DNA of 58,086 nt from Candidatus Aenigmatarchaeota archaeon (GTDB lineage Archaea; Aenigmatarchaeota; Aenigmatarchaeia; Aenigmatarchaeales; Aenigmatarchaeaceae): assembly GCA_046760145.1 (NCBI GenBank), contig JBHIDO010000002.1, positions 1 through 58,086 of the forward strand, in the 5' to 3' direction. Position numbers and translations under genes: made by a program. Within the stretch, counting starts at the first letter, position 1. Each line of letters begins with the position of its first letter. Positions 29,835-43,672 of the stretch are shown here, one piece after another. The notes under the pieces are model-generated. The model saw only the letters and a program-made list of their open reading frames with translations. It searched no databases and was not told the origin of the DNA.

Positions 29835-30920
29835 ATCTTTAGAACAATTTTGAATTGAATATTTCTTTACCGTTTCTAATCCATTCTTTATTAATTTATT
29901 TCTTAATTTTTTATTATTTAATATTTTCAAAATATGTTTATGAATTTCATTATCATTATTAAATAAAATTCCGTTGTAATTGTTTATTACAAAATCCTTA
30001 AAACCTAAAGCATTTTTAACAATAACCGGGCATTTGGATGCAAATGCTTCTAAAGCAACAACACCTTGAGTTTCCGTTTTAGAAGCACAAGCAAAAACAT
30101 CAGAAGTTTTATAATATTTTATTAAACTTTTTGGTTGAACCTTTTTATGAGAAATATAACCTGTAAATTCAACATTTTTTAATTTCATTTTTTTAACCAA
30201 ATTCTCTAATTCTTTTCTATATGGTCCATCAGAAGTTATTATTAATTTGGCATCAATTTTTTTGAGAAGTTTTTTAAATTCTCTTAAAATAACATCAATC
30301 CTTTTTTCTTTTGTTATTCTACCAACATGTAAAATTACTGGAACTTTATTTTTCTTTTTAACTTTAATGTTAAACTCTTCTAATTTCAAACCTGTTGGTA
30401 GAACTTTTATTGGTTTTCTAATTCCATAACTTTTTAATAATTTTTTTATTGGATTGCTAGGAACAGTTATTATATCGGCTCTATTAAAGAACCATTTTGT
30501 ATACTTTCTTATTGCTCTTTTATTTATCTTTTTTAAGAACTTTCTTTTTGTCAAATAATGAACATAATCTGTAAGAAATGTATGATATGTCATTACAATT
30601 GGTATTTTCAAAAATTTTGCTATTGACAAACCGATCAAACCAATAGAGGCAGGAGATTGTAAATGAATTATATCTGGTCTTATTTTTCTAATTATCCTTA
30701 AAACTTTTAGAGATGGTAATCCAATTCTATATTCAGGATAAGGTCTGAAACTAAAGGATCGTAAAGCATATACATTTTTTTCTTTTCTTAACTTCTTATC
30801 ATAAGGACAGACAATATATACTTTATGCCTTTTTCTCAATTGTTCTGAAAATAACTTTATAGAAGTAACAACACCATTTACTTGAGGGGTATAGGTATCT
30901 GTAAAGAATACAATTTTCAT
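29799..30920 (-). CDS. Glycosyltransferase family 4 (GT-B fold)
   Basis: N-terminal KIVFFTDTYTPQVNGV and C-terminal ASKTETQGVVALEAFASKCPVIV (E-x7-E-like). Confidence 0.85.
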   Translation of the reverse strand: MKIVFFTDTYTPQVNGVVTSIKLFSEQLRKRHKVYIVCPYDKKLRKEKNVYALRSFSFRPYPEYRIGLPSLKVLRIIRKIRPDIIHLQSPASIGLIGLSIAKFLKIPIVMTYHTFLTDYVHYLTKRKFLKKINKRAIRKYTKWFFNRADIITVPSNPIKKLLKSYGIRKPIKVLPTGLKLEEFNIKVKKKNKVPVILHVGRITKEKRIDVILREFKKLLKKIDAKLIITSDGPYRKELENLVKKMKLKNVEFTGYISHKKVQPKSLIKYYKTSDVFACASKTETQGVVALEAFASKCPVIVKNALGFKDFVINNYNGILFNNDNEIHKHILKILNNKKLRNKLIKNGLETVKKYSIQNCSKDLENIYKSLLKL

Positions 30921-33635: not shown

Positions 33636-33709
33636 CGCCCGAGTGGGGATTTGAACCCCAGTCACAAGCTCGACAGGCTCGCATACTAACCAGACTATAC
33701 TACCCGGGC
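33636..33709 (-). tRNA. tRNA-Asp(GUC), no intron, only CC encoded after the discriminator
   Basis: GCCCGGG TA GTAT AGTCTGGTTA GTAT G CGAGC CTGTCGA GCTTG TGAC TGGGG TTCAAAT CCCCA CTCGGGC G. Confidence 0.95.
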
Positions 33710-33863: not shown

Positions 33864-34385
33864 CTAACCAAAAGGATTACTGAGGTCTAATCCAAAAATA
33901 TTCTGAGATTTGTCTCTTAATTTTCTTATTTTATTATTTGATTTATTTATCAATTTAATTCTAAATTGTTGTAACCCAAAACCAGGAGATTTATCCAGTT
34001 TTTTTTGAAGTTTATGTTTCAATTCGTTCTCTACATATTTATTAACATTTCCGACCAGAACAACAATAACTCCTTCTTCGTAATCATCTTCATAATCATC
34101 TATCTGCCCTTGTAATCGATTAATTTGAGATTTAGATTTTAGATCTTTTTTGAGTTCAATTCCAACTTTTCTATTCCCTACTGCAATATCACAAAGACCT
34201 CTACCATCTTCTTTCCTAATCAAAATATTTTTAGTTCCAAAAAGCATATTTGTAGAACTACTAAGTCTATCGTGGATAAAGTTCATTAAGTCATCCCTAT
34301 ATTTTAATTCATTGGGATATTTCTGTTGTGGTTTCCACTGATTTATTATTTCAACAACTTCATCAAATAGACTCATTCCAAACAT
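33864..34385 (-). CDS. Hypothetical protein with a PD-(D/E)xK-like nuclease motif
   Basis: GRGLCDIAVGNRKVGIELKKD fits D-x10-E-x-K. An acidic DDYEDDYEE segment follows. No family recognised. Confidence 0.4.
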   Translation of the reverse strand: MFGMSLFDEVVEIINQWKPQQKYPNELKYRDDLMNFIHDRLSSSTNMLFGTKNILIRKEDGRGLCDIAVGNRKVGIELKKDLKSKSQINRLQGQIDDYEDDYEEGVIVVLVGNVNKYVENELKHKLQKKLDKSPGFGLQQFRIKLINKSNNKIRKLRDKSQNIFGLDLSNPFG

Positions 34386-34468
34386 AATAAAATATTAAAT
34401 TTCTTATATTTATTAAGTTTCCCCTTTTAGCACACATCTCTAAGGTTGGTAAGAATAAAGTTTAAAAA

Positions 34469-34581
34469 TCGCCAGCGTCCTGGGCTTCCCGTGTTTTCCA
34501 CAGTACAACCCAGATCGATGGAGCGATTCACTACCGTGTTCGAATGGGAACGGGTCTTTCCACTCCTCTTTGACCGGCGAC
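34469..34581 (-). rRNA. 5S ribosomal RNA (free-standing)
   Basis: On the minus strand, TCGCCGG...CCCGTTCCCATTCGAACACGGTAGTGAATCGC...GGGAAGCCCAGGACGCTGGCGA. The terminal helix pairs TCGCCGG with CTGGCGA. It is a GC-rich island in AT-rich DNA. The ends are accurate to a few nt. Confidence 0.85.
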
Positions 34582-34584
34582 AAA

Positions 34585-34866
34585 TTAGAATAGCCCTCTA
34601 GAATATTTAAAGTTTATAGAATCACTAAATTCTGGTTTTCCTATATCTCTTAAATTATAACTATCTAAAATAGAACTTACTGAACTTATTTGTCCTTCTA
34701 TAATAGTTTCTAAATCTATCATATTTTTAGGTGGAATTGGAAAAATAGCATCATTATTATTTTTATATAAATCGTGCTCTAATTCAATTACTATATAATT
34801 ATGCGTTAGTTCTTCTTCATCTCTTTTTATAGTTTTTGTAACCGATCTTAGTTCTGATACACTCAT
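34585..34866 (-). CDS. Hypothetical 93-aa protein, paralog of the upstream ORF
   Basis: IVIELEHDLYKNNNDAIFPIPPKNMI shares an EHDL-x2-NNN-x2-I-x2-IP motif with the 34863..35195 ORF. Its stop lies 3 nt before the 5S rRNA 5' end. Confidence 0.5.
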   Translation of the reverse strand: MSVSELRSVTKTIKRDEEELTHNYIVIELEHDLYKNNNDAIFPIPPKNMIDLETIIEGQISSVSSILDSYNLRDIGKPEFSDSINFKYSRGLF

Positions 34867-35195
34867 TGTTTACACCTTTCAATATCTAAATAAATAAAAA
34901 CATTACGTGAAGTTGTTTCTCTAAGACCTTCGTATCTTGTTTCTCTTAAAAGGATATCATCTCCTCTATAATTGTTTGATTCTTCAAACCCTCTTAAAAT
35001 ATAATTTCCTTGCTCAAATCTGGTTAACATATCTGTTAAACATTCTAATTGTTCACCAGTAAAACCACACTCTCCTTTTGAAGAATAAAGAGAACCTTGT
35101 AATCTACGTAATACATTCTGTGGTATAGTTAAAATTGTTCCATTATTATTTAGCACAAGATCATGCTCCTCATCAAATATAACTCTTTGGTTCAT
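34863..35195 (-). CDS. Hypothetical 110-aa protein
   Basis: VIFDEEHDLVLNNNGTILTIPQNVL; 4-nt ATGA overlap with the downstream paralog. Its residue usage is not lysine-rich, unlike the host genes. Confidence 0.5.
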   Translation of the reverse strand: MNQRVIFDEEHDLVLNNNGTILTIPQNVLRRLQGSLYSSKGECGFTGEQLECLTDMLTRFEQGNYILRGFEESNNYRGDDILLRETRYEGLRETTSRNVFIYLDIERCKQ

Positions 35196-35221
35196 AGGAT
35201 TTATAATTAATAAATAATATA

Positions 35222-35334
35222 TTTAAAGCTTACGGTATACGTAAAGAAATAGTAAAAAAATAACAATAATCGTTAAATTTATATACTAATTCGTATAATG
35301 AATACTACTATATCATTAGATAGAAAGATTTAAG
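35222..35334 (+). repeat. Degenerate direct-repeat copy of the lysC-lrp intergenic region plus the first ~12 codons of lrp
   Basis: Aligns with 42147-42259 at roughly three quarters identity by eye. It contains the exact 17-mer TCGTATAATGAATACTA (35291-35307 = 42216-42232) and a truncated ORF, MNTTISLDRKI*. Confidence 0.75.
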
Positions 35335-35335
35335 T

Positions 35336-35704
35336 TTAGATTTTGATTTTTTCCTCTATATAATCTTCATCATCAGACGGAATCTCTATTACAAGAAATT
35401 CTAACATTTCTGATCCAATATTTTTTACTCTATGTGCTACCCCTTCGGGTATAGGAATAACTGATGGGGCTTCTATTTTGAATCTTTCTCCGTCTAGAAT
35501 TATCTCTCCCATACCTCTAGAGAAATGATAAACATGTTTTGTTTTTTCATGGGAGTGATAGGGCACAAATTTTTCTGATTCTAGAAAAACATAAGAAACA
35601 GAGAGTTCAGTTTCCTCTACTATTGGAATATATCTTACTCCTTCTGTTTCGTGCACAATACTTTGGGAAAAATCTAATTCTGTAAAAGAATTTGATCCTG
35701 TCAT
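35336..35704 (-). CDS. Cupin domain protein (last gene of the lysine operon)
   Basis: HSHEKTKHVYHFSRGMGEI...GVAHRVKN is a cupin metal motif; ATGA overlap with the aminotransferase gene. Confidence 0.7.
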   Translation of the reverse strand: MTGSNSFTELDFSQSIVHETEGVRYIPIVEETELSVSYVFLESEKFVPYHSHEKTKHVYHFSRGMGEIILDGERFKIEAPSVIPIPEGVAHRVKNIGSEMLEFLVIEIPSDDEDYIEEKIKI

Positions 35705-36867
35705 AAAGACATTCTCCCTATGGCTTCTTCTATTATAGACTCAGGCTGAATTAATGATAATCTTATATAATTTGTTGCATAATCTCCGAAAGCCAAACCA
35801 TGAGTTACTACAACACCCTTTCTTATCATTTCTTTTGTGAAATCAACAGAATTCATACCACAATCAAACCAAAGATAAAATGTAGCTTTTGGGTTTTCTA
35901 CTTTATATCCTATTTCATTCAAACCCTTAACTGCAACATCTCTTCTTTTTCTATAAGTATCAACAATCTCTTCTATCTCCGGGGGTCTCTGGGAACTCTC
36001 ATAACTATCCAGAGCAGCAGCTGCTGCAGCTTGAATATAAGTTGGAGAAGCCATATCAACCTGAGACTTAACTTTTACCATCCCCCCAATCACATCTTGG
36101 TTTCCAACGGCAAACCCTATTCTATCCCCGCCCATTGAAAAGGTTTTAGAGAAACTATTCATTTCAACATGATCCATTCCCCCGTCAAATTGGAGTAAGG
36201 AAGGTGCCATATAACCATCAAAAGTTATTTCTGAGTAAGCATTGTCAAATGCTATGACTATCCCATTATCTTCTGCAAAATTCAAAGATTCTTTCAAGAA
36301 TTCATTGCTAGCTATAGCAGTAGTAGGATTGTTGGGATAATTTAGATACATTAATTTTGCCTTTTTTACAATTTCAGTAGGTATAGAGTCAAACAATGGA
36401 AGATAGCCATTTTCCTTTTCGAGATTCATATAATAAGGAACCCCCTCGTTCAAAATTGCTCCACCCTTTGCATAAACCGGATATCCTGGATCAGGAACTA
36501 AAACAAAATCTCCTGGGTCTACAAGAGTTTTAGCAATAACACCCAAACCTTCTTTAGACCCAATCAAATTAGTAACATTTTCTTCTTCTAAACTAACCCC
36601 GAATCTGTTTTGCATCCAATTTGCAACAGATTCTCTAAAGAAAGGTTCTCCCCCACTTGAGTTAAGTGTATATCTGTGATGTTTTTGTTTTTGTGTTTCT
36701 TTTGCCAATACATCTAAAATAAACTGTGGGGTTGGTACATCTGGTATTCCTACCCCAAGTCTTATTAAGTCTACACCTTTGTTTTCTTGTTCCTTTATCA
36801 AATCCTCTATGTAAACAAATGCGTATTTTGGAACCCTCTTGACCCTTTCAGCTAACTTTACTTTCAT
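35701..36867 (-). CDS. Class I PLP aminotransferase, LL-diaminopimelate aminotransferase (DapL)-like
   Basis: VPKYAFVYIEDL...IRLGVGIPDVPTP N-terminus, YPNNPTT, and the SFSKTFSMGGDRIG PLP-lysine motif, in an operon context with dapA/dapB/lysA. Confidence 0.6.
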   Translation of the reverse strand: MKVKLAERVKRVPKYAFVYIEDLIKEQENKGVDLIRLGVGIPDVPTPQFILDVLAKETQKQKHHRYTLNSSGGEPFFRESVANWMQNRFGVSLEEENVTNLIGSKEGLGVIAKTLVDPGDFVLVPDPGYPVYAKGGAILNEGVPYYMNLEKENGYLPLFDSIPTEIVKKAKLMYLNYPNNPTTAIASNEFLKESLNFAEDNGIVIAFDNAYSEITFDGYMAPSLLQFDGGMDHVEMNSFSKTFSMGGDRIGFAVGNQDVIGGMVKVKSQVDMASPTYIQAAAAAALDSYESSQRPPEIEEIVDTYRKRRDVAVKGLNEIGYKVENPKATFYLWFDCGMNSVDFTKEMIRKGVVVTHGLAFGDYATNYIRLSLIQPESIIEEAIGRMSL

Positions 36868-38114
36868 GTTATCGTCCTTGCAATATCTTTGTAAGTTTCT
36901 CTTCTTCTTATCAATGTAGATTTTTCTTTGTCAATCAAAACTTCTGCAGGCCTTAATCTTGAATTGTAGTTTGAGCTCATTGAAAATCCATATGCACCTG
37001 CATTTAGAATTGCTAAAATATCATCTTTTCTTGGTTTTGGTATTTCTCTTTCTTTAATTCCATTCTTGTCTCGTGTAAAAACATCTCCAGATTCACAAAC
37101 ATTTCCAGTAATAAGAACTTCTTCTTTTTCTCCGTAAGGGTTTGACAAATTTACAATTTCATGATAAGCTCCATAAAGAACAGGTCTTATTAAATGATTA
37201 AAGCCTGTATCGGTTCCAATGAAGGTATAACATGGAGTCAATTTTCTATCTGTAACCATTGTTAAAAGAGAACCTGAATCTGCAACATAATATCTTCCAT
37301 TTTCTAAGATAAGGTCAAGATCCCTCCCATAATTTTCACACCATTGTTCAAAAATTTCACTGAGACCAACACCAAAATTGTTTAAATCAATTTCATTTTC
37401 ATTCGGACCGTAAGGAATTCCAACCCCACCTCCAAAATTTACATATTCCAAATCTGGAAAATTCTCAGCTGTTCTTAGCAAAGATTTTGAAGCCTTTAGA
37501 AATGGCTCACTTGTTAAAAATCTAGATCCTATATGCATATGAAGTCCTACTATTTCCAATTCGCAATCTTTTGCTGTTTGGATTATTTCATTAACTTGAG
37601 TGTAAGGAATTCCAAATTTACTTTTTTCATCACCTGTAATAACATATTCATGATGACCTGCCCCTATACCAGGATTTATTCTAACTGAGATTCCATTAAG
37701 TCTTTCTTCAAGACTTGCATAGGTTTCTATTTGTTCCAAAGAGTCTGCATTAAAATTAATATTTTCTGCTCCAACAATTTCTAAATCTTTTTGAGAGGCG
37801 CTATTAGATGTGAAAAACATTTCTTTAGAATTAAAACCAGCAAGTTTTGAAAATTCAATTTCCCCAGGACTAGCAACATCAATACCGTGACAACCAGCTT
37901 CTTTTAAAACTTTCATTATGTGAGGATTTGCATTAGCCTTACATGCATAAAGAAGTTTTTTTGGTTCATAAATCACAGCCTCAGCAACCTCTGAGAATCT
38001 TTCCACTATCTTACTTTTTTCATAAACATAAAGAGGAGTTTCAAATTCATCTACAAATTCTCTAAACCCAACATCCTCAAAAAGGAAATTTCCATTATCA
38101 AAATTCATAAGCAA
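36864..38114 (-). CDS. lysA: Diaminopimelate decarboxylase
   Basis: YACKANANPHI (PLP Lys), HMHIGS, CESGD, 416 aa. Confidence 0.88.
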   Translation of the reverse strand: MLMNFDNGNFLFEDVGFREFVDEFETPLYVYEKSKIVERFSEVAEAVIYEPKKLLYACKANANPHIMKVLKEAGCHGIDVASPGEIEFSKLAGFNSKEMFFTSNSASQKDLEIVGAENINFNADSLEQIETYASLEERLNGISVRINPGIGAGHHEYVITGDEKSKFGIPYTQVNEIIQTAKDCELEIVGLHMHIGSRFLTSEPFLKASKSLLRTAENFPDLEYVNFGGGVGIPYGPNENEIDLNNFGVGLSEIFEQWCENYGRDLDLILENGRYYVADSGSLLTMVTDRKLTPCYTFIGTDTGFNHLIRPVLYGAYHEIVNLSNPYGEKEEVLITGNVCESGDVFTRDKNGIKEREIPKPRKDDILAILNAGAYGFSMSSNYNSRLRPAEVLIDKEKSTLIRRRETYKDIARTIT

Positions 38115-39003
38115 TCCCCAAATTTTTCATAACTTTATCAACTTCTATTCTAGACTCTTCTGTCAATGGTGTAAGTGGTAATCTAGGAACCCCAGCATCT
38201 ATTCCTACTTTGGTTAGCATATAATGTGCTGGTATTGGATTAGTTTCTATAAATAATGCTTCGTACAAGTCCCTTAATTGTTCATCAATTGCAATGGCAG
38301 ATTCATATTGTCCTTCAAGAGCATAATGTACCATATCAGAAGTTTTTTTAGGATCAATATTTGCTGATACAGAAATTACTCCATAACCTCCATTTTTTAT
38401 TATTTCGTATGTTAGTCCATCATCTCCAGAAAGAACACTGAAATTTTCTAAATCAGAAGTTTCGTCAATGATTTTTTTTATTTTATCAATATCACCAGAT
38501 GCTTCTTTTACAGCAATTATGTTACTATATTCCCTTGCCAATCTCACAACAGTATCTGGTTCAATACTTCTAGCAGTTCTACCAGGAACATTATAAATAA
38601 TTAATTCTCCTTGAATTGCATTTGCAATTCTTCCATAGTGCATAAACAATCCTTCTTGCATTGGTTTGTTCTGATATGGACTTATTTGCAGATGCGTTTT
38701 AATCCCAAAATCCTCAAAACATAAAGCATCTTCTATAGCTTGTTTTGTATAGTTCGAACCATCACCCACTATAACTTCTTTTCCCTTTGCTATATCCAAA
38801 ACAGTCTGAACTATTTGTTCTTGCTCTTCCATGTCAAAAGAATTTGCATGACCTGTACAGCCTAAAGGTACTACACCGTCTACACCACCACTTATTACAT
38901 ATTCAACCAAATTTTCTAGAGCTTCAAAATTTACAGGACTATCTAAATTTTCTTTATCCGAAGTTATCGGAGTTACCAATGCTGGAAAACAACCTTTTAA
39001 CAT
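38098..39003 (-). CDS. dapA: 4-hydroxy-tetrahydrodipicolinate synthase
   Basis: GVDGVVPLGCTGH, IYNVPGRT, AVKEASGD (Schiff-base Lys). Confidence 0.9.
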   Translation of the reverse strand: MLKGCFPALVTPITSDKENLDSPVNFEALENLVEYVISGGVDGVVPLGCTGHANSFDMEEQEQIVQTVLDIAKGKEVIVGDGSNYTKQAIEDALCFEDFGIKTHLQISPYQNKPMQEGLFMHYGRIANAIQGELIIYNVPGRTARSIEPDTVVRLAREYSNIIAVKEASGDIDKIKKIIDETSDLENFSVLSGDDGLTYEIIKNGGYGVISVSANIDPKKTSDMVHYALEGQYESAIAIDEQLRDLYEALFIETNPIPAHYMLTKVGIDAGVPRLPLTPLTEESRIEVDKVMKNLGIAYEF

Positions 39004-40044
39004 TCAATCACCCAATCCTAATTTATAAAATAGTTCAGCATTTAAGACTGAACCACCCGCAGCACCTCTTATTGTATTATGTGAGAGCGAAAAGAATTTA
39101 TAATTAAAAATATTGTCTGTTCTCAATCTACCAACACTAACAGTCATACCATTACCACGCATTCTATCTAATCTAGGTTGTGGTCTATCTTCTTCCTCAA
39201 AAATATATAAAACATCTTTTGGAGACGAATACAAACCATATTCTTTCAAAGGATTGAAACTCTGTATATATTGTTTTAATTCTTCCACATCTTTCTGATT
39301 TTTAACTCTAACCTGAATATGTTCTGTATGACCGTCTATGACAGGAACTCTAGAGCAGGATACAGAATAAATTACATCGGGATTGTGCATCATTTTTTTA
39401 GATTCTATTTCAATTTTTTCTTCTTCCTGTCTTATAAATGGAATAACATTTGATACCATAACTCCACCCGGATATGCACCTTTGCCTGCTCCAGATAATG
39501 CCTGATAAGTTGTAACATTTACTTCTTCCAAACCACACAAATCATCTATAGGTTTTAATGGTAAAAGCAAACCTGTTGCAGAGCAATTGGGATTCTTAAT
39601 AATACAACCACCATTATTTTCATACCATGCCTGACCTCTTACAAGTTCTAAATCTGAACCATTTACTTCAGGGATAACAAGTGGGATATCTGATTCCATT
39701 CTCATTGCACTTGAATTTGAAAAAACTTTTACTCCCTGTTCAGCAAGTGAAATTTCTAATTCTTTTGGAACTTCACCGCTTGGCAAAGCAGAAAAAGCAA
39801 GATCAATTCTTTCTGCAATATATTTTATATCATCCAGCCCACCTCTTTCTATTTCCATATCTTCTAATTCTTCTGGTACAACAAAATCATCTAATCCCCA
39901 TATATCTTTTAATTTCTTACCAGCAGTAGAATTTCCTGTTATTATTTCTAAATTAAAATATGGATGTTCATAAAGCATTTGCACAAATCTCTGTCCCACA
40001 AATCCTCCGCCCAAGATTCCAACTTTTTTCATTTTATTCACCAA
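39004..40044 (-). CDS. asd: Aspartate-semialdehyde dehydrogenase
   Basis: VGILGGGFVGQ Rossmann motif, NPNCSATG active-site Cys, and SHNTIRGAAG. Confidence 0.9.
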   Translation of the reverse strand: MVNKMKKVGILGGGFVGQRFVQMLYEHPYFNLEIITGNSTAGKKLKDIWGLDDFVVPEELEDMEIERGGLDDIKYIAERIDLAFSALPSGEVPKELEISLAEQGVKVFSNSSAMRMESDIPLVIPEVNGSDLELVRGQAWYENNGGCIIKNPNCSATGLLLPLKPIDDLCGLEEVNVTTYQALSGAGKGAYPGGVMVSNVIPFIRQEEEKIEIESKKMMHNPDVIYSVSCSRVPVIDGHTEHIQVRVKNQKDVEELKQYIQSFNPLKEYGLYSSPKDVLYIFEEEDRPQPRLDRMRGNGMTVSVGRLRTDNIFNYKFFSLSHNTIRGAAGGSVLNAELFYKLGLGD

Positions 40045-40735
40045 ATATATCTTCTAACATTTGATCAAAGGTATAAAGGCCCTTTTTATTTCTAATCCAA
40101 CGTGCAGCTTCTAATGCACCCTTTGCAAAACCTTCTCTACTTTTTGCAGCATGTGTAATTTCTATCGAATCTCCCTGAGAATCAAAAATTGTTGTATGGG
40201 TTCCTACAATACTTCCTACTCTTACACTACTAATCGGAATATTCTCATATCCAGATTGTTTTAATATCTCTTTAATTTTTTTAGCAGTTCCAGATGGTGC
40301 ATCAAGTTTTTGATCATGATGCATCTCAATAACAGCTGGATCATAATCTAATCTTTTAAGATCTTTTCCTATTTTTTCCAATATTCTATAATATACATTT
40401 ACTCCCAATGAAAAGTTTGGAGCAAATATAAAACCAACATCAGACTCCATTACAATAGATTTTACCTCATCAAGAGAATCATACCAACCTGTTGTACCAA
40501 CAACAATATCTTTTCCTAAACTACAAACCTTTCTAATATTTTCAACAACAGAATCTGGAGATGTGAAGTCGATACAGACATCCGCTCCTTGAACACTTTC
40601 CTTGTTTATTTCTTTATACAAGGCATCAGTACTGATTGGGTCTATTGTAGAGTAAACTTCAAAATGTTCTGAACTATTTGCTAGACTTTCTACTTCTCTT
40701 CCCATTTTACCGTATCCTATTAAAGATATTTTCAT
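40034..40735 (-). CDS. dapB: 4-hydroxy-tetrahydrodipicolinate reductase
   Basis: KISLIGYGKMG, EMHHDQKLDAPSGTA. Confidence 0.9.
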   Translation of the reverse strand: MKISLIGYGKMGREVESLANSSEHFEVYSTIDPISTDALYKEINKESVQGADVCIDFTSPDSVVENIRKVCSLGKDIVVGTTGWYDSLDEVKSIVMESDVGFIFAPNFSLGVNVYYRILEKIGKDLKRLDYDPAVIEMHHDQKLDAPSGTAKKIKEILKQSGYENIPISSVRVGSIVGTHTTIFDSQGDSIEITHAAKSREGFAKGALEAARWIRNKKGLYTFDQMLEDIFGE

Positions 40736-42123
40736 TTTTTAACCTCCGGAAAAAATTCATCATGAAGCAAATTGACAGCTCTCTGAAGATACTTTTGGTC
40801 CACTACTAAACCTATACTTCTTGATGATGCACCTTCTGACAACATAACGTGATTAACGTCATTATCAGCAAGTGCCTTTAACGTTCTTGCTGTTACACCA
40901 ACTGTTTTACCAATTCCCTCTCCAACAACATTGATACTTGCCATATTCGGTCTGTGAGTAACAGTAGCAAAGGGTTTTAATCTTCTCTTAATTTCACTCA
41001 TGTATATATCATTATCAACAGTTAATGAAATACTAGTTTCTGATGTTGCAAGCATATCAACAGATTTTCCATATTCACTAAATGCTTCAAAAATATGCGC
41101 AAGGTAACCAGGTTGATCGACCATTTTTGTTGATTCAACATTAATAAGAGTTATATCCTCTTTATGAGCAATCGCTTTAACTTGACCATCACCAGCTTCT
41201 GATTCACGAGTTATTTTTGTACTCGAATTGTCAGGCTTGAATGTGTTAAAGATGTAGACAGGTATGTTTTTTTCCATTGCAGGTTCAATCGCTTTTGGAT
41301 ATAAAACTCTTGAACCAAAGTGTGCTAACTGTGCTGCTTCTGCAAAAGATAGATTTTCAGCAGTTTTTGCATTTGAAACCAAGTTTGGGTCTGCAGTCAT
41401 TATACCATTAACATCTGTCCAGATTTCAATGTAATCAGCATCCAAGGCAGCTCCAATAACTGCTGCTGATAGGTCTGAACCACCCCTTCCCAAAGTTGTT
41501 ATCTCTCCTTTTGGTGTCATACCAATAAATCCAGGTGAAACCCAAACCTTATCTTGTTTAAATTCTTCTTTTATATCTTCATCATAACTCCAGTCGGCTG
41601 TTATAGCATTATAAGCATAATCCAAAACTTCTGCATTACCAAAATTCTCATCTGTTATTATATGAAAGAGCCCATACTCTGCATCAATTCCTCTATCTCG
41701 TAAAGTAGCAGTAAATATGTTGGCAGATAATCGTTCTCCATACGAGGTTATTAGATCTTGAAATCTAGCAAAGTTTGAATCCCTATTTTTAAGTGCATGA
41801 TCTAAATCCGTAACAAGTTCTTCCCAAGTTTGTTCTTCAGAATATTTTTTTTTAATGTTACACATTAAATCGTTAGTAAGGTCTTTATGTCTTTTGTAAA
41901 TAGAAGATAAATCTGATTCATAAGAATTACCTTTATGGGCTTGAGTAGCACACTTTATCAACGCATCTGTTACTTTTGTTTCATAGCCTTTTGCAGTACC
42001 AACAGCAGAAGTTACAACAACAAGATCTTTTTCAAATGACTTTCTTTCTTCAACAATGTCAGCAGATTTCCTAATAGCATAAGCATTTCCAAGTGAAGAT
42101 CCACCGAATTTCATTACAATCAT
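40732..42123 (-). CDS. lysC: Aspartate kinase
   Basis: IVMKFGGSSLG, GRGGSDLSAA, and C-terminal ACT-like repeats. Confidence 0.9.
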   Translation of the reverse strand: MIVMKFGGSSLGNAYAIRKSADIVEERKSFEKDLVVVTSAVGTAKGYETKVTDALIKCATQAHKGNSYESDLSSIYKRHKDLTNDLMCNIKKKYSEEQTWEELVTDLDHALKNRDSNFARFQDLITSYGERLSANIFTATLRDRGIDAEYGLFHIITDENFGNAEVLDYAYNAITADWSYDEDIKEEFKQDKVWVSPGFIGMTPKGEITTLGRGGSDLSAAVIGAALDADYIEIWTDVNGIMTADPNLVSNAKTAENLSFAEAAQLAHFGSRVLYPKAIEPAMEKNIPVYIFNTFKPDNSSTKITRESEAGDGQVKAIAHKEDITLINVESTKMVDQPGYLAHIFEAFSEYGKSVDMLATSETSISLTVDNDIYMSEIKRRLKPFATVTHRPNMASINVVGEGIGKTVGVTARTLKALADNDVNHVMLSEGASSRSIGLVVDQKYLQRAVNLLHDEFFPEVKK

Positions 42124-42146
42124 GCTAAAAGTGGATAAGTAAACCT

Positions 42147-42259
42147 TTTAAATCTTACGTATACAGTAAAAATTCAGAAAAATATCTACTAGAAACGTTA
42201 GATTTATATATTAAATCGTATAATGAATACTAATATGTTATTAGACCAAAAAATTTTAG
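42147..42259 (+). repeat. Functional copy of the direct repeat (lysC/lrp divergent control region plus lrp start)
   Basis: See 35222-35334; it contains the lrp ATG at 42223. Confidence 0.75.
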
Positions 42260-42642
42260 ATGAGTTAAGAAAAAACTCAAGAAAATCAAATGTAGAAATA
42301 GCTAAGAAATTAAAAGTATCAGAAGGAACAGTAAGAAAAAGGATACAAAGATTAATTAAAAGAGGTGTGATCAAAAAATTTACAATAGAGATATCCACAA
42401 AAACCGGATTTTCAACAATGGTATTAATAAAAAGCAAACCCCAAGTCAATACTTCTAAAATAGTTGAAAATATTAAAAAAATAAAAGATGTTGAAAGTAT
42501 TTTTGAAACTGCAGGAGATTATGATGTGATTGTAAATATTGTTACAATATCTGCAGAAAGTTTTAATAACATTATTGAAAGGGTAAGAAAAATAGATGGA
42601 ATTTTAGAAACAGAAACACTGACTATTCTAAAAATATCTTAA
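42223..42642 (+). CDS. Lrp/AsnC family transcriptional regulator
   Basis: LDELRKNSRKSNVEIAKKLKVSEGTVRKRIQRL HTH plus a RAM-like C-terminal domain; divergent from lysC. Confidence 0.88.
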   Translation: MNTNMLLDQKILDELRKNSRKSNVEIAKKLKVSEGTVRKRIQRLIKRGVIKKFTIEISTKTGFSTMVLIKSKPQVNTSKIVENIKKIKDVESIFETAGDYDVIVNIVTISAESFNNIIERVRKIDGILETETLTILKIS

Positions 42643-42674
42643 GTATTTAAGTTTTTTTGAACATTAATAAAAGC

Positions 42675-43553
42675 ATGAACTCTATGATAATACCTGGAAG
42701 CGCATCTAAAGAATTAGCAAAACTTTTTTCTGAGAATCTAGGATATCCACTAGCAAATGTAGAATATACAAAATTTCCTAATGGAGAATTTAAAGTTGGA
42801 ATAAAGGAAGATGAATTACCTAAAACAGTTTACATTGTACAATCTACTTATGAACCACAAGGAATGCATTATTTTGAAGCATATTTCTTATCAGAACAAG
42901 CTAGAGATGAATTTTCAGTAGGTGAAGTAATAGGAATTTTTCCATTTATGGGTTTTTCTAGGGAATATTCTTCTATAAAAAGGATTTTTAAACAGCTTAA
43001 AAATTCAGGAATTAATAGGGCAATAACATTTGATGCTCATTTTCATAGGGAAGAGGGGAAATGTGATGATTTTGATATATCCTGCCATACTTTGACTGCA
43101 AGTAAACCATTAATCGACTATGCTATTGAAAGATTCTCTCTTGAAAATCCATTTATAATTAGTCCTGATAAGGGTGGGAAGGAAATAGTTAGTAAATATG
43201 AAGATAAATACGATGCTACATTTTTGATAAAGGAAAGATTGAGTCCTGACAAAGTAAGAATTGTTAGATTAGCAAATGAAGAATTAGATGTAGAAGGTAG
43301 AAATATTATTCTTAATGATGATACTATGGGTACTTGTGATACCATGATAGAGGCTTCAGAATATTTGAAATCTAGGGGTGCAGAAAGAATTATAGCAACT
43401 GCCACACACGCAGAGCTAGTTCATATAAAAGATGCATATAATTCATTAGCGCATGAGGTAAGTGGCATCGTAGTTACTGATACTATTCCTAACTTTTTAA
43501 GTGATGTGGTTTCTGTTTCTAATCTTATTCAAAGAAATAAAGAATTTCTTTAA
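42675..43553 (+). CDS. prs: Ribose-phosphate pyrophosphokinase (PRPP synthase)-like
   Basis: IIPGSASKELAKLFSENLGYPLA..EYTKFPNGE and NDDTMGTCDTM (PRPP loop-like). I prefer the ATG at 42675 over the TTG at 42657. Confidence 0.7.
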   Translation: MNSMIIPGSASKELAKLFSENLGYPLANVEYTKFPNGEFKVGIKEDELPKTVYIVQSTYEPQGMHYFEAYFLSEQARDEFSVGEVIGIFPFMGFSREYSSIKRIFKQLKNSGINRAITFDAHFHREEGKCDDFDISCHTLTASKPLIDYAIERFSLENPFIISPDKGGKEIVSKYEDKYDATFLIKERLSPDKVRIVRLANEELDVEGRNIILNDDTMGTCDTMIEASEYLKSRGAERIIATATHAELVHIKDAYNSLAHEVSGIVVTDTIPNFLSDVVSVSNLIQRNKEFL

Positions 43554-43560
43554 AAAAGAG

Positions 43561-43672
43561 TCCCGTCTGGGAGATTCGAACTCCCGACCTACCGGTTTCT
43601 GAGCAACTGCTAAATGAGCAATACAAATGTAAAGCTCTACAGCCGGTCGCTCTACCACTGAGCTAAGACGGG
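43561..43672 (-). tRNA. tRNA-Tyr(GUA) with one 40-nt intron at 37/38; no encoded CCA
   Basis: CCCGTCT TA GCTC AGTGGTA GAGC G ACCGG CTGTAG [40 nt] A CCGGT AGGTC GGGAG TTCGAAT CTCCC AGACGGG A. It has the C1-G72 pair typical of archaeal tRNA-Tyr. Confidence 0.9.
43597..43636 (-). other. tRNA-Tyr intron (40 nt, 37/38)
   Basis: A near-canonical BHB. CTG of 32-34 pairs with CAG, with one T-T mismatch in the 4-bp helix. The bulges are AG|A and AA|A. Confidence 0.7.

What the first reader, a model, noticed from the sequence alone, without database searches (positions are those of the whole stretch)
35336..43553. A compositionally foreign, translationally coupled lysine (DAP-aminotransferase route) operon lacks dapF and has a terminal cupin gene
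Seven genes run lysC-dapB-asd-dapA-lysA-aminotransferase-cupin. Each junction overlaps by up to 17 nt or abuts directly. An Lrp regulator is divergent from lysC, and a PRPP synthase gene follows the regulator. The DNA is visibly richer in G+C than the backbone. For example, the 60-nt line starting at 36001 has 26 G+C, whereas the line starting at 30301 has 13. The proteins also lack the lysine-rich bias of the host genes. The block lies between tRNA-Asp (33636-33709) and tRNA-Tyr (43561-43672). Amino-acid biosynthesis is usually sparse in small DPANN-type genomes, so acquisition of lysine synthesis by a very Lys-rich proteome would be notable. A DapL-type route requires a diaminopimelate epimerase, and none is in the operon. 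The ATGA-coupled cupin sits where a pathway gene would be expected.
Basis: partly seen in the sequence, partly recalled or inferred. Interest (0 to 1): 0.6.

Follow-up and report, generated by a model that had tools for sequence, protein, structure and literature searches.

The report
Acquired lysine operon lacking dapF, with cupin
A tiny DPANN archaeon picked up a complete-looking lysine-synthesis gene cassette that lacks the usual epimerase gene (dapF), and its last two genes, a divergent DapL-like aminotransferase and a small metal-binding cupin, travel together in other lineages too, so the cupin is a testable but unproven candidate for the missing step.

Summary
Seven overlapping or abutting minus-strand genes (lysC-dapB-asd-dapA-lysA-DapL-like aminotransferase-cupin) face a LysM-like Lrp gene followed by prs.

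**Composition.** This is the most GC-rich seven-gene block in the assembly. The excess sits at codon position 1, as in FtsZ, EF-2 and the thermosome, so it reflects conserved proteins. Only the aminotransferase and cupin are GC-enriched at four-fold sites.

**Foreign origin.** This is supported by other evidence:
- Family relatives keep eIF2gamma-DUF11-tRNA-Tyr-5S-tRNA-Asp with 82 nt to 2.7 kb between tRNA-Tyr and 5S. This genome has 8,979 nt there.
- A 130-nt direct repeat brackets cupin-to-lysC exactly.
- None of 371 class genomes has this aminotransferase type.
- DapL and LysA trees place the genes apart from in-class homologs.

**dapF.** I found no dapF, Ddh or other racemase family in the assembly (65% complete), and no dapF in 40 relatives. 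In-class lysine clusters carry dapF beside dapL.

**The cupin.** It is a 3-His monocupin of a tiny subfamily. Members sit beside DapL-like aminotransferases in at least three other lineages, one of them apparently without a lysine pathway. Its role as epimerase substitute is untested; I put it at about 15%.

An earlier scan note on this same stretch had reported the repeat.

The parts
40732..42123 (-). lysC, aspartate kinase with ACT domains; first gene of the operon
   Evidence: PF00696 and ACT domains; TIGR00657 358 bits against a cut-off of 208.7
40034..40735 (-). dapB, 4-hydroxy-tetrahydrodipicolinate reductase
   Evidence: TIGR00036 173.9 bits against a cut-off of 122; overlaps lysC by 4 nt
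39004..40044 (-). asd, aspartate-semialdehyde dehydrogenase (archaeal/eukaryal type)
   Evidence: TIGR00978 321.9 bits against a cut-off of 301.2
38098..39003 (-). dapA, 4-hydroxy-tetrahydrodipicolinate synthase
   Evidence: TIGR00674 285.6 bits against a cut-off of 206; abuts asd
36864..38114 (-). lysA, diaminopimelate decarboxylase with canonical motifs
   Evidence: TIGR01048 405 bits against a cut-off of 298. Aligns end to end with solved LysA structures, with the CESGD and PLP-lysine motifs present
35701..36867 (-). Divergent DapL-like class-I aminotransferase
   Evidence: Best families are TIGR03540 (443 bits, cut-off 593) and NF006756 (431 bits, cut-off 507). Falls in an archaeal DapL-annotated clade (100*) with a 7-member subclade (99*). 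Has the second-highest four-fold-site GC of 185 genes
35336..35704 (-). 122-aa monocupin with conserved His50, His52 and His91 and a C-terminal E-x-P-P/S-D-D-x-D motif; ATGA-coupled to the aminotransferase
   Evidence: PF07883. AlphaFold2 pLDDT 94. Foldseek neighbours are Thermococcus mini phosphomannose isomerases, TTHA0104, DddK and KdgF. Subfamily alignment A4. Partners of DapL-like genes elsewhere
42223..42642 (+). Lrp/AsnC regulator, LysM-like, divergent from lysC across a 99-nt intergenic region
   Evidence: PF13412 and PF01037; NF040947 LysM 133 bits, below its cut-off of 180. Homologous lrp genes head the in-class lysine clusters
42657..43553 (+). prs, ribose-phosphate diphosphokinase; part of the inserted block
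   Evidence: TIGR01251 164.6 bits against a cut-off of 113. Not found in any of the 20 family genomes
35210..35339 (.). Left copy of the 130-nt direct repeat; holds a decayed lrp start and promoter-like boxes and ends at the cupin stop codon
   Evidence: 93 of 130 nt identical to the right copy. The next best match of that 130-mer anywhere in the genome is 69 of 130
42135..42264 (.). Right copy of the direct repeat: the live lysC/lrp intergenic region plus the first ~40 nt of lrp
43561..43672 (-). Intron-bearing tRNA-Tyr(GUA); conserved boundary of the variable slot
   Evidence: Rfam RF00005 60.6 bits. Same gene in the same place in relatives
34467..34581 (-). 5S rRNA; the other conserved boundary of the variable slot
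   Evidence: Rfam RF00001 71 bits. In relatives it lies 82 nt to 2.7 kb from tRNA-Tyr
34585..35195 (-). Two small overlapping ORFs (110 and 93 aa) with no family; further cargo of the insert between the left repeat and the 5S rRNA
   Evidence: No Pfam family at threshold. No homolog in the slot of relatives
33636..33709 (-). tRNA-Asp(GUC), syntenic flank
   Evidence: ARAGORN and Rfam

Best explanation
**What it is.** This is a horizontally acquired and largely ameliorated lysine-biosynthesis cassette. It sits in a variable slot between tRNA-Tyr and the 5S rRNA gene of a small AT-rich DPANN genome. Earlier scan notes call the lineage Aenigmatarchaeota; I did not verify that.

**How it is organised.** A divergent LysM-like Lrp gene shares a 99-nt bidirectional control region with a seven-gene, translationally coupled operon.

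**Inferred pathway (from family assignments).**
- LysC and Asd make aspartate semialdehyde.
- DapA and DapB make tetrahydrodipicolinate.
- The divergent DapL-like aminotransferase makes diaminopimelate.
- LysA makes lysine.

**The missing step.** The canonical LL-to-meso epimerase DapF is not in the cassette. It is probably not in the genome either.

**The last two genes.** The aminotransferase and a small 3-His cupin form a conserved two-gene module. Its synonymous-site composition differs from the other five genes, which suggests a separate history. The cupin therefore most likely acts on the aminotransferase's substrate or product. Its chemistry is unknown. It is the only unassigned gene in the cassette, which makes it the best local candidate for the stereo-inversion that LysA needs.

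**The GC-richness.** It is mostly an effect of conserved protein composition.
For: **Gene identities and coupling.**

**Empty site.** G007, G016, G009 and G001 keep eIF2gamma-DUF11-tRNA-Tyr-[82 nt / 400 nt / 2.6 kb / 2.7 kb]-5S-tRNA-Asp. This genome has 8,979 nt in that slot. The cargo in G009 is unrelated.

**Distribution.**
- A LysA match turned up in only 2 of 41 close genomes: this one and a weak 33%-identity match in G001.
- prs was found in none of the 20 family genomes.
- dapB above its cut-off was found in 13 of 301 phylum genomes.
- None of 371 class genomes has this aminotransferase type: 735 bits here, 386 for the next best.

**Trees.**
- The aminotransferase groups (99*) with sequences that include a 'Woesearchaeota'-labelled one. 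That group lies inside a 100* archaeal clade, apart from all 16 in-class sequences.
- LysA pairs (100*) with one metagenome protein and is separated (98*) from the in-class LysA clade.

**Repeat.** 93 of 130 nt are identical, against a genome-wide next best of 69. The repeat brackets cupin-to-lysC exactly.

**Composition.**

**No dapF, Ddh or racemase.**

**dapF is normally clustered.**
- G188 has lrp-dapA-dapB-lysC-asd-dapL-dapF-lysA.
- 7 of 8 in-class genomes with lysA have dapF.
- 29 of 81 metagenome or genome DapL loci have dapF nearby (mostly directly upstream of dapL) and none has the cupin.

**Aminotransferase-cupin pairing.**
- In G315 the two genes overlap by 4 nt.
- P0004 and P0123 lie on one 4,486-nt contig.
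- P0007 and P0124 share a 9,724-nt contig, and P0394 and P0398 share a 7,397-nt contig.
- NCBI records OGX07317 and OGX07316 carry adjacent locus tags A2Z88_01915 and A2Z88_01920.
- The cupin subfamily groups at 93 SH-aLRT, and a single clade is not rejected.
Against: - The genome is 64.7% complete, so dapF could lie in unassembled DNA.
- In G315 the aminotransferase-cupin pair occurs where dapA, dapB and lysA were not found (that genome is 71% complete). The pair is therefore not tied to lysine synthesis everywhere.
- The aminotransferase scores below NCBIfam's DapL cut-offs, whereas the in-class DapL that sits next to dapF passes them. Its substrate is inferred, not shown.
- I found no paper describing a cupin-fold amino-acid epimerase in the library searched.
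- The co-location of pairs on metagenome contigs rests on equal contig lengths and adjacent accessions, not on reading the DNA.
- I could not check read coverage across the island junctions.
Confidence: 0.6

Rival explanations
1. The cupin supplies the missing stereo-inversion. It would act either as a metal-dependent LL/meso-diaminopimelate epimerase, or as an isomerase on the cyclic imine tetrahydrodipicolinate so that the L-specific aminotransferase yields meso-DAP directly. The aminotransferase-cupin pair would then replace DapL plus DapF.
For: - It is the only unassigned gene in a cassette that otherwise covers every step except epimerisation.
- It is ATGA-coupled to the aminotransferase.
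- The pairing is conserved in at least four lineages.
- The partner aminotransferase clade is divergent from canonical DapL.
- No dapF, Ddh or known racemase family is in the assembly or in the relatives.
- In other clusters dapF sits next to dapL.
- The cupin fold includes isomerases, among them phosphomannose and phosphoglucose isomerases, KdgF and BacB, which appear among its nearest solved relatives.
Against: - I found no precedent for a cupin amino-acid or imine epimerase.
- The pair in G315 lacks detectable dapA, dapB and lysA.
- The subfamily is tiny and evolves fast: 27-57% identity, with only 11 hits below 1e-10 among 1.8 billion representatives.
- A 3-His site is more typical of dioxygenases (my own knowledge).
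- Nothing here tests activity.
Confidence: 0.15
2. A canonical dapF, or an Alr-family DapF2, lies in the unassembled ~35% of the genome. The cupin would then be an accessory or unrelated passenger at the operon's tail.
For: - Completeness is 64.66%.
- Passenger genes at the tails of lysine operons have been seen elsewhere in this scan (note e1-1256226).
- DapF2 shows that non-clustered replacements exist (PMC13759103).
Against: - None of the 40 relatives has dapF, so a second independent acquisition would be needed.
- When DapL-route genes are clustered in this class, dapF is usually in the cluster.
- The conserved aminotransferase-cupin pairing argues against a random passenger.
Confidence: 0.25
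3. No dedicated epimerase exists. LL-DAP would be converted to meso-DAP slowly by a promiscuous PLP enzyme, such as LysA itself or the aminotransferase, as is thought to happen in E. coli dapF mutants. Alternatively LysA accepts LL-DAP. The cupin would then do something else for the aminotransferase, such as handling its keto-acid or cyclic-imine substrate.
For: - An E. coli dapF deletion has no growth defect (PMC13759103).
- LysA has the alanine-racemase fold and scores 29 bits on PF01168, above that family's cut-off of 24.1.
- A slow-growing symbiont needs little flux (inference).
- KdgF-like ring-opening cupins are among the structural neighbours.
Against: - LysA looks canonical, and characterised LysA enzymes are meso-specific (my own knowledge).
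- No other racemase family was found that could supply the side activity.
- This is speculative.
Confidence: 0.2
4. The cassette is ancestral to the lineage and was lost from all sampled relatives. On this view it was inherited vertically and not transferred.
For: - Synonymous-site composition of five of the seven genes is native.
- DAP-pathway genes occur patchily across the class.
Against: - Relatives have an 82-nt empty site at exactly this position.
- In-class DapL and LysA fall in other clades.
- No class genome has this aminotransferase type.
- A direct repeat brackets the cassette.
Confidence: 0.07

Closest known systems
DapL (LL-diaminopimelate aminotransferase) variant of the diaminopimelate lysine pathway, as in methanogens, Chlamydia, plants and cyanobacteria
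   Same: LysC, Asd, DapA, DapB, a DapL-family aminotransferase and LysA are all present, with no Ddh found. The in-class relative G188 shows the textbook cluster lrp-dapA-dapB-lysC-asd-dapL-dapF-lysA.
   Different: There is no DapF in the cassette or the assembly. The aminotransferase belongs to a divergent clade that scores below the curated DapL cut-offs. A cupin gene is coupled to it. The gene order also differs.
DapF2, the alanine-racemase-family protein that replaces DapF in Staphylococcus (Ashniev et al. 2022, as cited in PMC13759103; complementation shown in PMC13759103)
   Same: It is a precedent for DapF being replaced by a non-homologous enzyme found through gene association with lysine genes.
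   Different: DapF2 is a PLP-dependent fold-type III enzyme. No such gene was found here, and the candidate here is a metal-binding cupin.
Small metal-binding monocupins of Pfam Cupin_2: TM1459, TTHA0104, Thermococcus mini phosphomannose isomerases (7zvm, 7zvy), KdgF, DddK
   Same: Same fold and size, with the HxH...H metal motif.
   Different: Sequence identity is only 12-21%. The Glu of motif 1 is not conserved in the subfamily. The subfamily has its own N-terminal E-G-x-x-Y motif and C-terminal E-x-P-P-D-D-x-D motif. None of these relatives is linked to amino-acid synthesis.
BacB then aminotransferase in bacilysin biosynthesis: a bicupin isomerase acting on a 2-oxo acid just before transamination (my own knowledge; BacB matched)
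   Same: A cupin isomerase and an aminotransferase act in consecutive steps on one keto-acid scaffold. This is a working analogy for the pair.
   Different: BacB is a bicupin in a secondary-metabolite pathway. No specific sequence relationship exists beyond the superfamily.
HGT-driven gain of amino-acid biosynthesis in DPANN (for example lysA gains inferred in Micrarchaeota, PMC12892359)
   Same: A host-dependent small-genome archaeon gains lysine synthesis genes.
   Different: Here the insertion site, an empty site in relatives and a bracketing repeat are resolved for a whole operon.

Membership tests
DapL-variant DAP lysine pathway operon | Aspartate kinase and aspartate-semialdehyde dehydrogenase | tested here: met
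   TIGR00657 358 bits (cut-off 208.7); TIGR00978 321.9 bits (cut-off 301.2)
DapL-variant DAP lysine pathway operon | DapA and DapB | tested here: met
   TIGR00674 285.6 bits (cut-off 206); TIGR00036 173.9 bits (cut-off 122)
DapL-variant DAP lysine pathway operon | LL-diaminopimelate aminotransferase (DapL) | tested here: inconclusive
   The best families are the DapL models, but the scores fall below their cut-offs: 443 against 593 and 431 against 507. The protein nests in a 100*-supported archaeal clade whose named members are annotated DapL. The in-class DapL that sits next to dapF passes the cut-offs.
DapL-variant DAP lysine pathway operon | Diaminopimelate epimerase DapF | tested here: not met
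   No PF01678 or TIGR00652 match, no hit to my own DapF HMM and no tblastn hit in the 552-kb assembly. None in 40 relatives. The assembly is 64.7% complete.
DapL-variant DAP lysine pathway operon | Diaminopimelate decarboxylase LysA | tested here: met
   TIGR01048 405 bits (cut-off 298); aligns with solved LysA structures
DapL-variant DAP lysine pathway operon | No alternative branch (Ddh; DapD/DapC/DapE) | tested here: inconclusive
   Ddh (TIGR01921) was not found. DapD and DapE were not searched.
Cupin_2 metal-binding monocupin | Double-stranded beta-helix fold | tested here: met
   AlphaFold2 pLDDT 94.2 with ten or more strands. Foldseek probability 1.0 to many monocupins, TM up to 0.79.
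Cupin_2 metal-binding monocupin | Motif 1 (HxH...E) and motif 2 (H) metal ligands | tested here: inconclusive
   His50, His52 and His91 are invariant in the subfamily. The motif-1 Glu position is not conserved: Lys56/His57 here. Metal binding itself cannot be tested with these tools.
DapF family (PF01678) or DapF2 (Alr family), applied to the cupin | Homology to a known diaminopimelate epimerase | tested here: not met
   The cupin matches only cupin families. It can be at most a functional analogue, not a member.
Genomic island in a tRNA-flanked variable slot | Absent from the same site in relatives, between conserved flanks | tested here: met
   The gap between tRNA-Tyr and 5S is 82 nt in G007, 400 nt in G016, 2.6 kb in G009, 2.7 kb in G001 and 8,979 nt here.
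Genomic island in a tRNA-flanked variable slot | Flanking direct repeats | tested here: met
   A 130-nt repeat with 93 of 130 nt identical. It brackets the lysine cassette only, not the whole insert.
Genomic island in a tRNA-flanked variable slot | Integrase or other mobility gene | tested here: not met
   No such Pfam family in the small ORFs of the insert.
Genomic island in a tRNA-flanked variable slot | Deviant composition at synonymous sites | tested here: inconclusive
   Five genes are native-like (p = 0.15). The aminotransferase plus cupin deviate (p = 1e-5).

The most novel reading that the evidence does not exclude
A divergent DapL-like aminotransferase and its conserved partner, a small 3-His cupin, together convert tetrahydrodipicolinate to meso-diaminopimelate, with the cupin providing the stereo-inversion. 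This would be a non-homologous replacement of DapF and the first cupin-fold epimerase or isomerase acting in amino-acid biosynthesis.
Probability: 0.15. Interest if true: 0.8.

Novelty: new variant of a known kind. Interest (0 to 1): 0.55.

Why it matters
Gaps in amino-acid pathways are being filled systematically. GapMind 2026 (PMC13759103) confirmed one non-homologous DapF replacement, DapF2. This locus offers a concrete and cheap-to-test second candidate: a conserved aminotransferase-cupin pair sitting in a lysine operon that lacks dapF.

The locus is also a cleanly resolved case of a host-dependent DPANN archaeon gaining a whole biosynthetic operon. It has an insertion slot, an empty site in relatives and a bracketing repeat.

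Finally, it is a worked example of a pitfall. In a very AT-rich genome, a visibly GC-rich stretch can simply be a run of conserved enzymes.

Tried and rejected
I fell back on equal contig lengths and adjacent NCBI accessions.

**Searches that gave little**
- The genome-contig scan gave only one locus at 42% identity.
- The metagenome scan was swamped by a generic PDPGYPVY pattern and returned only loci at 46% identity or less. I used these as a background set.
- The viral-contig scan found nothing.
- Single-sequence AlphaFold2 of the cupin was poor (pLDDT 56). I redid it with an alignment.
- The ESM Atlas returned only generic cupin clusters.

**Ideas considered and dropped**
- Ectoine-synthase-like role for the cupin: no PF06339 match here, and only a 26-bit hit to ectoine synthase for the G315 protein.
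- The cupin as a resident gene that the operon fused to by chance: rejected, because the repeat boundary and the ATGA coupling place it inside the cassette.
- Synteny between cupin and lrp genes in relatives: those proteins are only about 30-35% identical and belong to other subgroups, so I did not use it.

Full report
**Observation.**
- lysC, dapB, asd, dapA and lysA all pass the curated NCBIfam cut-offs.
- The sixth gene is a class-I aminotransferase. Its best families are the LL-diaminopimelate aminotransferase models, but it scores below their cut-offs (443 against 593; 431 against 507).
- The seventh is a 122-aa protein that matches only Cupin_2.
- The junctions overlap by 4, 11, 0, 17, 4 and 4 nt, and the last one is an ATGA.
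- A LysM-like Lrp gene diverges from lysC across 99 nt, and prs follows it.
- tRNA-Asp and an intron-bearing tRNA-Tyr flank the region. A 5S rRNA gene and three small ORFs without a family also lie inside it.

**Composition.** The GC-richness is real. The two example lines hold 26 and 13 G+C, and the operon is the most GC-rich of 420 seven-gene blocks (33.9%). The excess, however, is at codon position 1 (0.479, top 0.2% of blocks).
- GC3 (0.188) is at the 94th percentile of blocks and the synonymous codon-usage distance is at the 81st.
- The genes elsewhere in the genome with equal or higher GC1 are FtsZ, the thermosome, EF-1alpha, EF-2, RadA, MCM and PcrB.
The lower lysine content has the same cause.
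- At four-fold degenerate sites the first five genes match the genome (odds ratio 1.2, p = 0.15).
- The aminotransferase and the cupin together are twice as GC-rich there as the rest: 20% against 9.7%, p = 1e-5. Against the other five genes, p = 0.002. The aminotransferase ranks second of 185 genes.

**Foreign origin.** Comparison with relatives settles what composition cannot.
- *Empty site.* Four genomes of the same family keep the order eIF2gamma, DUF11 protein, tRNA-Tyr, 5S rRNA, tRNA-Asp, tRNA-Lys. The gap between tRNA-Tyr and 5S is 82 nt (G007), 400 nt (G016), 2.6 kb (G009) or 2.7 kb (G001). In this genome it is 8,979 nt and holds prs, lrp, the operon and two small ORFs. The G009 cargo is unrelated: peptidase S51 and a lycopene-cyclase-like protein. 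The slot is therefore a variable site.
- *Distribution.* A LysA match appears in only 2 of 41 close genomes: this one and a weak 33%-identity match in G001 that carries a stop codon. prs appears in none of the 20 family genomes. dapB above its cut-off appears in 13 of 301 phylum genomes. None of the 371 class genomes has this type of aminotransferase: 735 bits here, 386 for the next best.
- *Aminotransferase tree.* It groups (SH-aLRT 99) with six metagenome or MAG proteins of 56-61% identity, one of them labelled Woesearchaeota. That group lies inside a 100-supported clade with Bathyarchaeota, Nitrososphaerota, Promethearchaeota and Micrarchaeota sequences, apart from all 16 in-class sequences.
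- *LysA tree.* LysA pairs with a single 65% homolog and lies in a DPANN-rich group. That group is separated (98) from the in-class LysA clade.
- *Repeat.* A 130-nt direct repeat (35210-35339 and 42135-42264) is identical at 93 of 130 positions. The next best match of that 130-mer anywhere in the genome is 69 of 130. It brackets cupin-to-lysC exactly and contains the lrp start and the promoter boxes. An earlier first-reader note (e1-4496404) had reported this repeat, and I confirmed it.
- *Reading.* Together this fits an old acquisition that has since been ameliorated, or a donor that was equally AT-rich.

**The missing epimerase.** No dapF is found in the assembly by Pfam, by NCBIfam, by an HMM I built from seven in-class DapF proteins, or by tblastn.
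- There is also no Ddh, Asp/Glu racemase, proline racemase, PhzF or alanine-racemase family.
- None of the 40 relatives has dapF, so a dapF hidden in the missing 35% would need a second acquisition.
- Where the pathway is clustered in this class, dapF is normally part of it. G188 has lrp-dapA-dapB-lysC-asd-dapL-dapF-lysA. Seven of eight in-class genomes with lysA have dapF. In 29 of 81 unrelated DapL loci dapF lies nearby, mostly directly upstream of dapL, and the cupin never does.
- Against over-reading the gap: an E. coli dapF deletion grows, presumably through a promiscuous racemase, and the one confirmed replacement, DapF2, is an alanine-racemase-family protein (PMC13759103).

**The cupin.**
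- *Structure.* With an alignment it folds as a confident monocupin (pLDDT 94). Its nearest solved structures are generic small cupins: Thermococcus mini phosphomannose isomerases, TTHA0104, DddK and KdgF.
- *Family size.* An exhaustive search of 1.8 billion representatives gave only 11 hits below 1e-10.
- *Subfamily.* Its nearest relatives share invariant His50, His52 and His91, an N-terminal E-G-x-x-Y motif and a C-terminal E-x-P-P-D-D-x-D motif. They group at SH-aLRT 93 among 55 monocupins.
- *Pairing, the new point.* In class genome G315 a subfamily member overlaps by 4 nt the end of a DapL-like aminotransferase. Cupin P0123 and the closest aminotransferase homolog P0004 (61% identity) each lie on a single 4,486-nt contig from the same sources. 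Cupin P0124 and aminotransferase P0007 share 9,724-nt and 7,397-nt contigs. Their NCBI copies are OGX07316 and OGX07317, with adjacent locus tags.
- *Reading.* The aminotransferase and cupin are therefore a conserved two-gene module. This fits their shared, deviant synonymous-site composition.
- *Caution.* G315 shows no dapA, dapB or lysA (that genome is 71% complete). The module is therefore not confined to lysine synthesis.

**Mechanism.**
- *Shown:* gene identities, coupling, insertion, absence of dapF from the data in hand, and the conserved pairing.
- *Inferred:* the operon converts aspartate to lysine by the DapL-type route under a LysM-like regulator, and the cupin acts on the aminotransferase's substrate or product.
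- *Speculative:* the cupin provides the LL-to-meso inversion, either on DAP or on the cyclic imine before transamination.
- I found no paper linking cupins to amino-acid epimerisation.

My estimates are:

| Reading | Probability |
|---|---|
| The cupin supplies the inversion | about 15% |
| dapF lies in unassembled DNA | about 25% |
| Promiscuous epimerisation | about 20% |

**Known context and novelty.** HGT-driven gains of amino-acid synthesis in DPANN, including lysA, are already described (PMC12892359). The acquisition is therefore a new instance of a known theme. The dapF-less cassette with a conserved aminotransferase-cupin module is a new variant and gives a directly testable gap-filling hypothesis.

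**Limits.**
- The taxonomic label rests on earlier notes that I did not verify.

Noticed in passing
window 35210-35339 and 42135-42264: A 130-nt direct repeat brackets the lysine cassette. The left copy carries a decayed lrp start. Its lysC-promoter-like box sits about 30 nt upstream of the 110-aa ORF at 35195, so it may now drive that ORF.
   Followed up: partly
window 42657-43553: The PRPP synthase gene prs is part of the inserted block. It was not found in any of the 20 family genomes and appears in only 2 of 40 relatives, at 32-39% identity.
   Followed up: partly
L179:4957-7575 (G009), L181:12056-14772 (G001): The slot between tRNA-Tyr and 5S rRNA is a variable site in this family. In G009 it holds unrelated cargo: peptidase S51, a lycopene-cyclase-like protein, a zinc-ribbon protein and a winged-helix protein.
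   Followed up: partly
G240:C66 (L140:5324-6955); also G060, G161, G201, G066: Several class genomes carry dapB, with dapA beside it in G240 and G060, but no dapF and no full lysA; DapL was searched and missed only in G240. This hints at a use of DapA/DapB outside lysine synthesis.
   Followed up: no
L055 (G087:C6:26026-27216) and L002 (G001:C10:601-1770): The LysA reading frames in G087 (one TGA and one TAG) and in G001 (one TAA) contain in-frame stops. Lysine genes may be decaying in some relatives.
   Followed up: no
L005, L006, L007, L190, L199, L015: More distant small cupin genes lie within about 1 kb of Lrp/AsnC-family regulator genes in six class genomes from several families.
   Followed up: no
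G000 contig C27:491-1765: This gene has the highest four-fold-site GC in the assembly (0.28, against a genome value of 0.097). It is a stronger compositional outlier than anything in the lysine operon.
   Followed up: no
window 33864-34385: A 173-aa ORF without a family sits between the 5S rRNA and tRNA-Asp. In relatives these two RNA genes are only about 50-300 nt apart.
   Followed up: no
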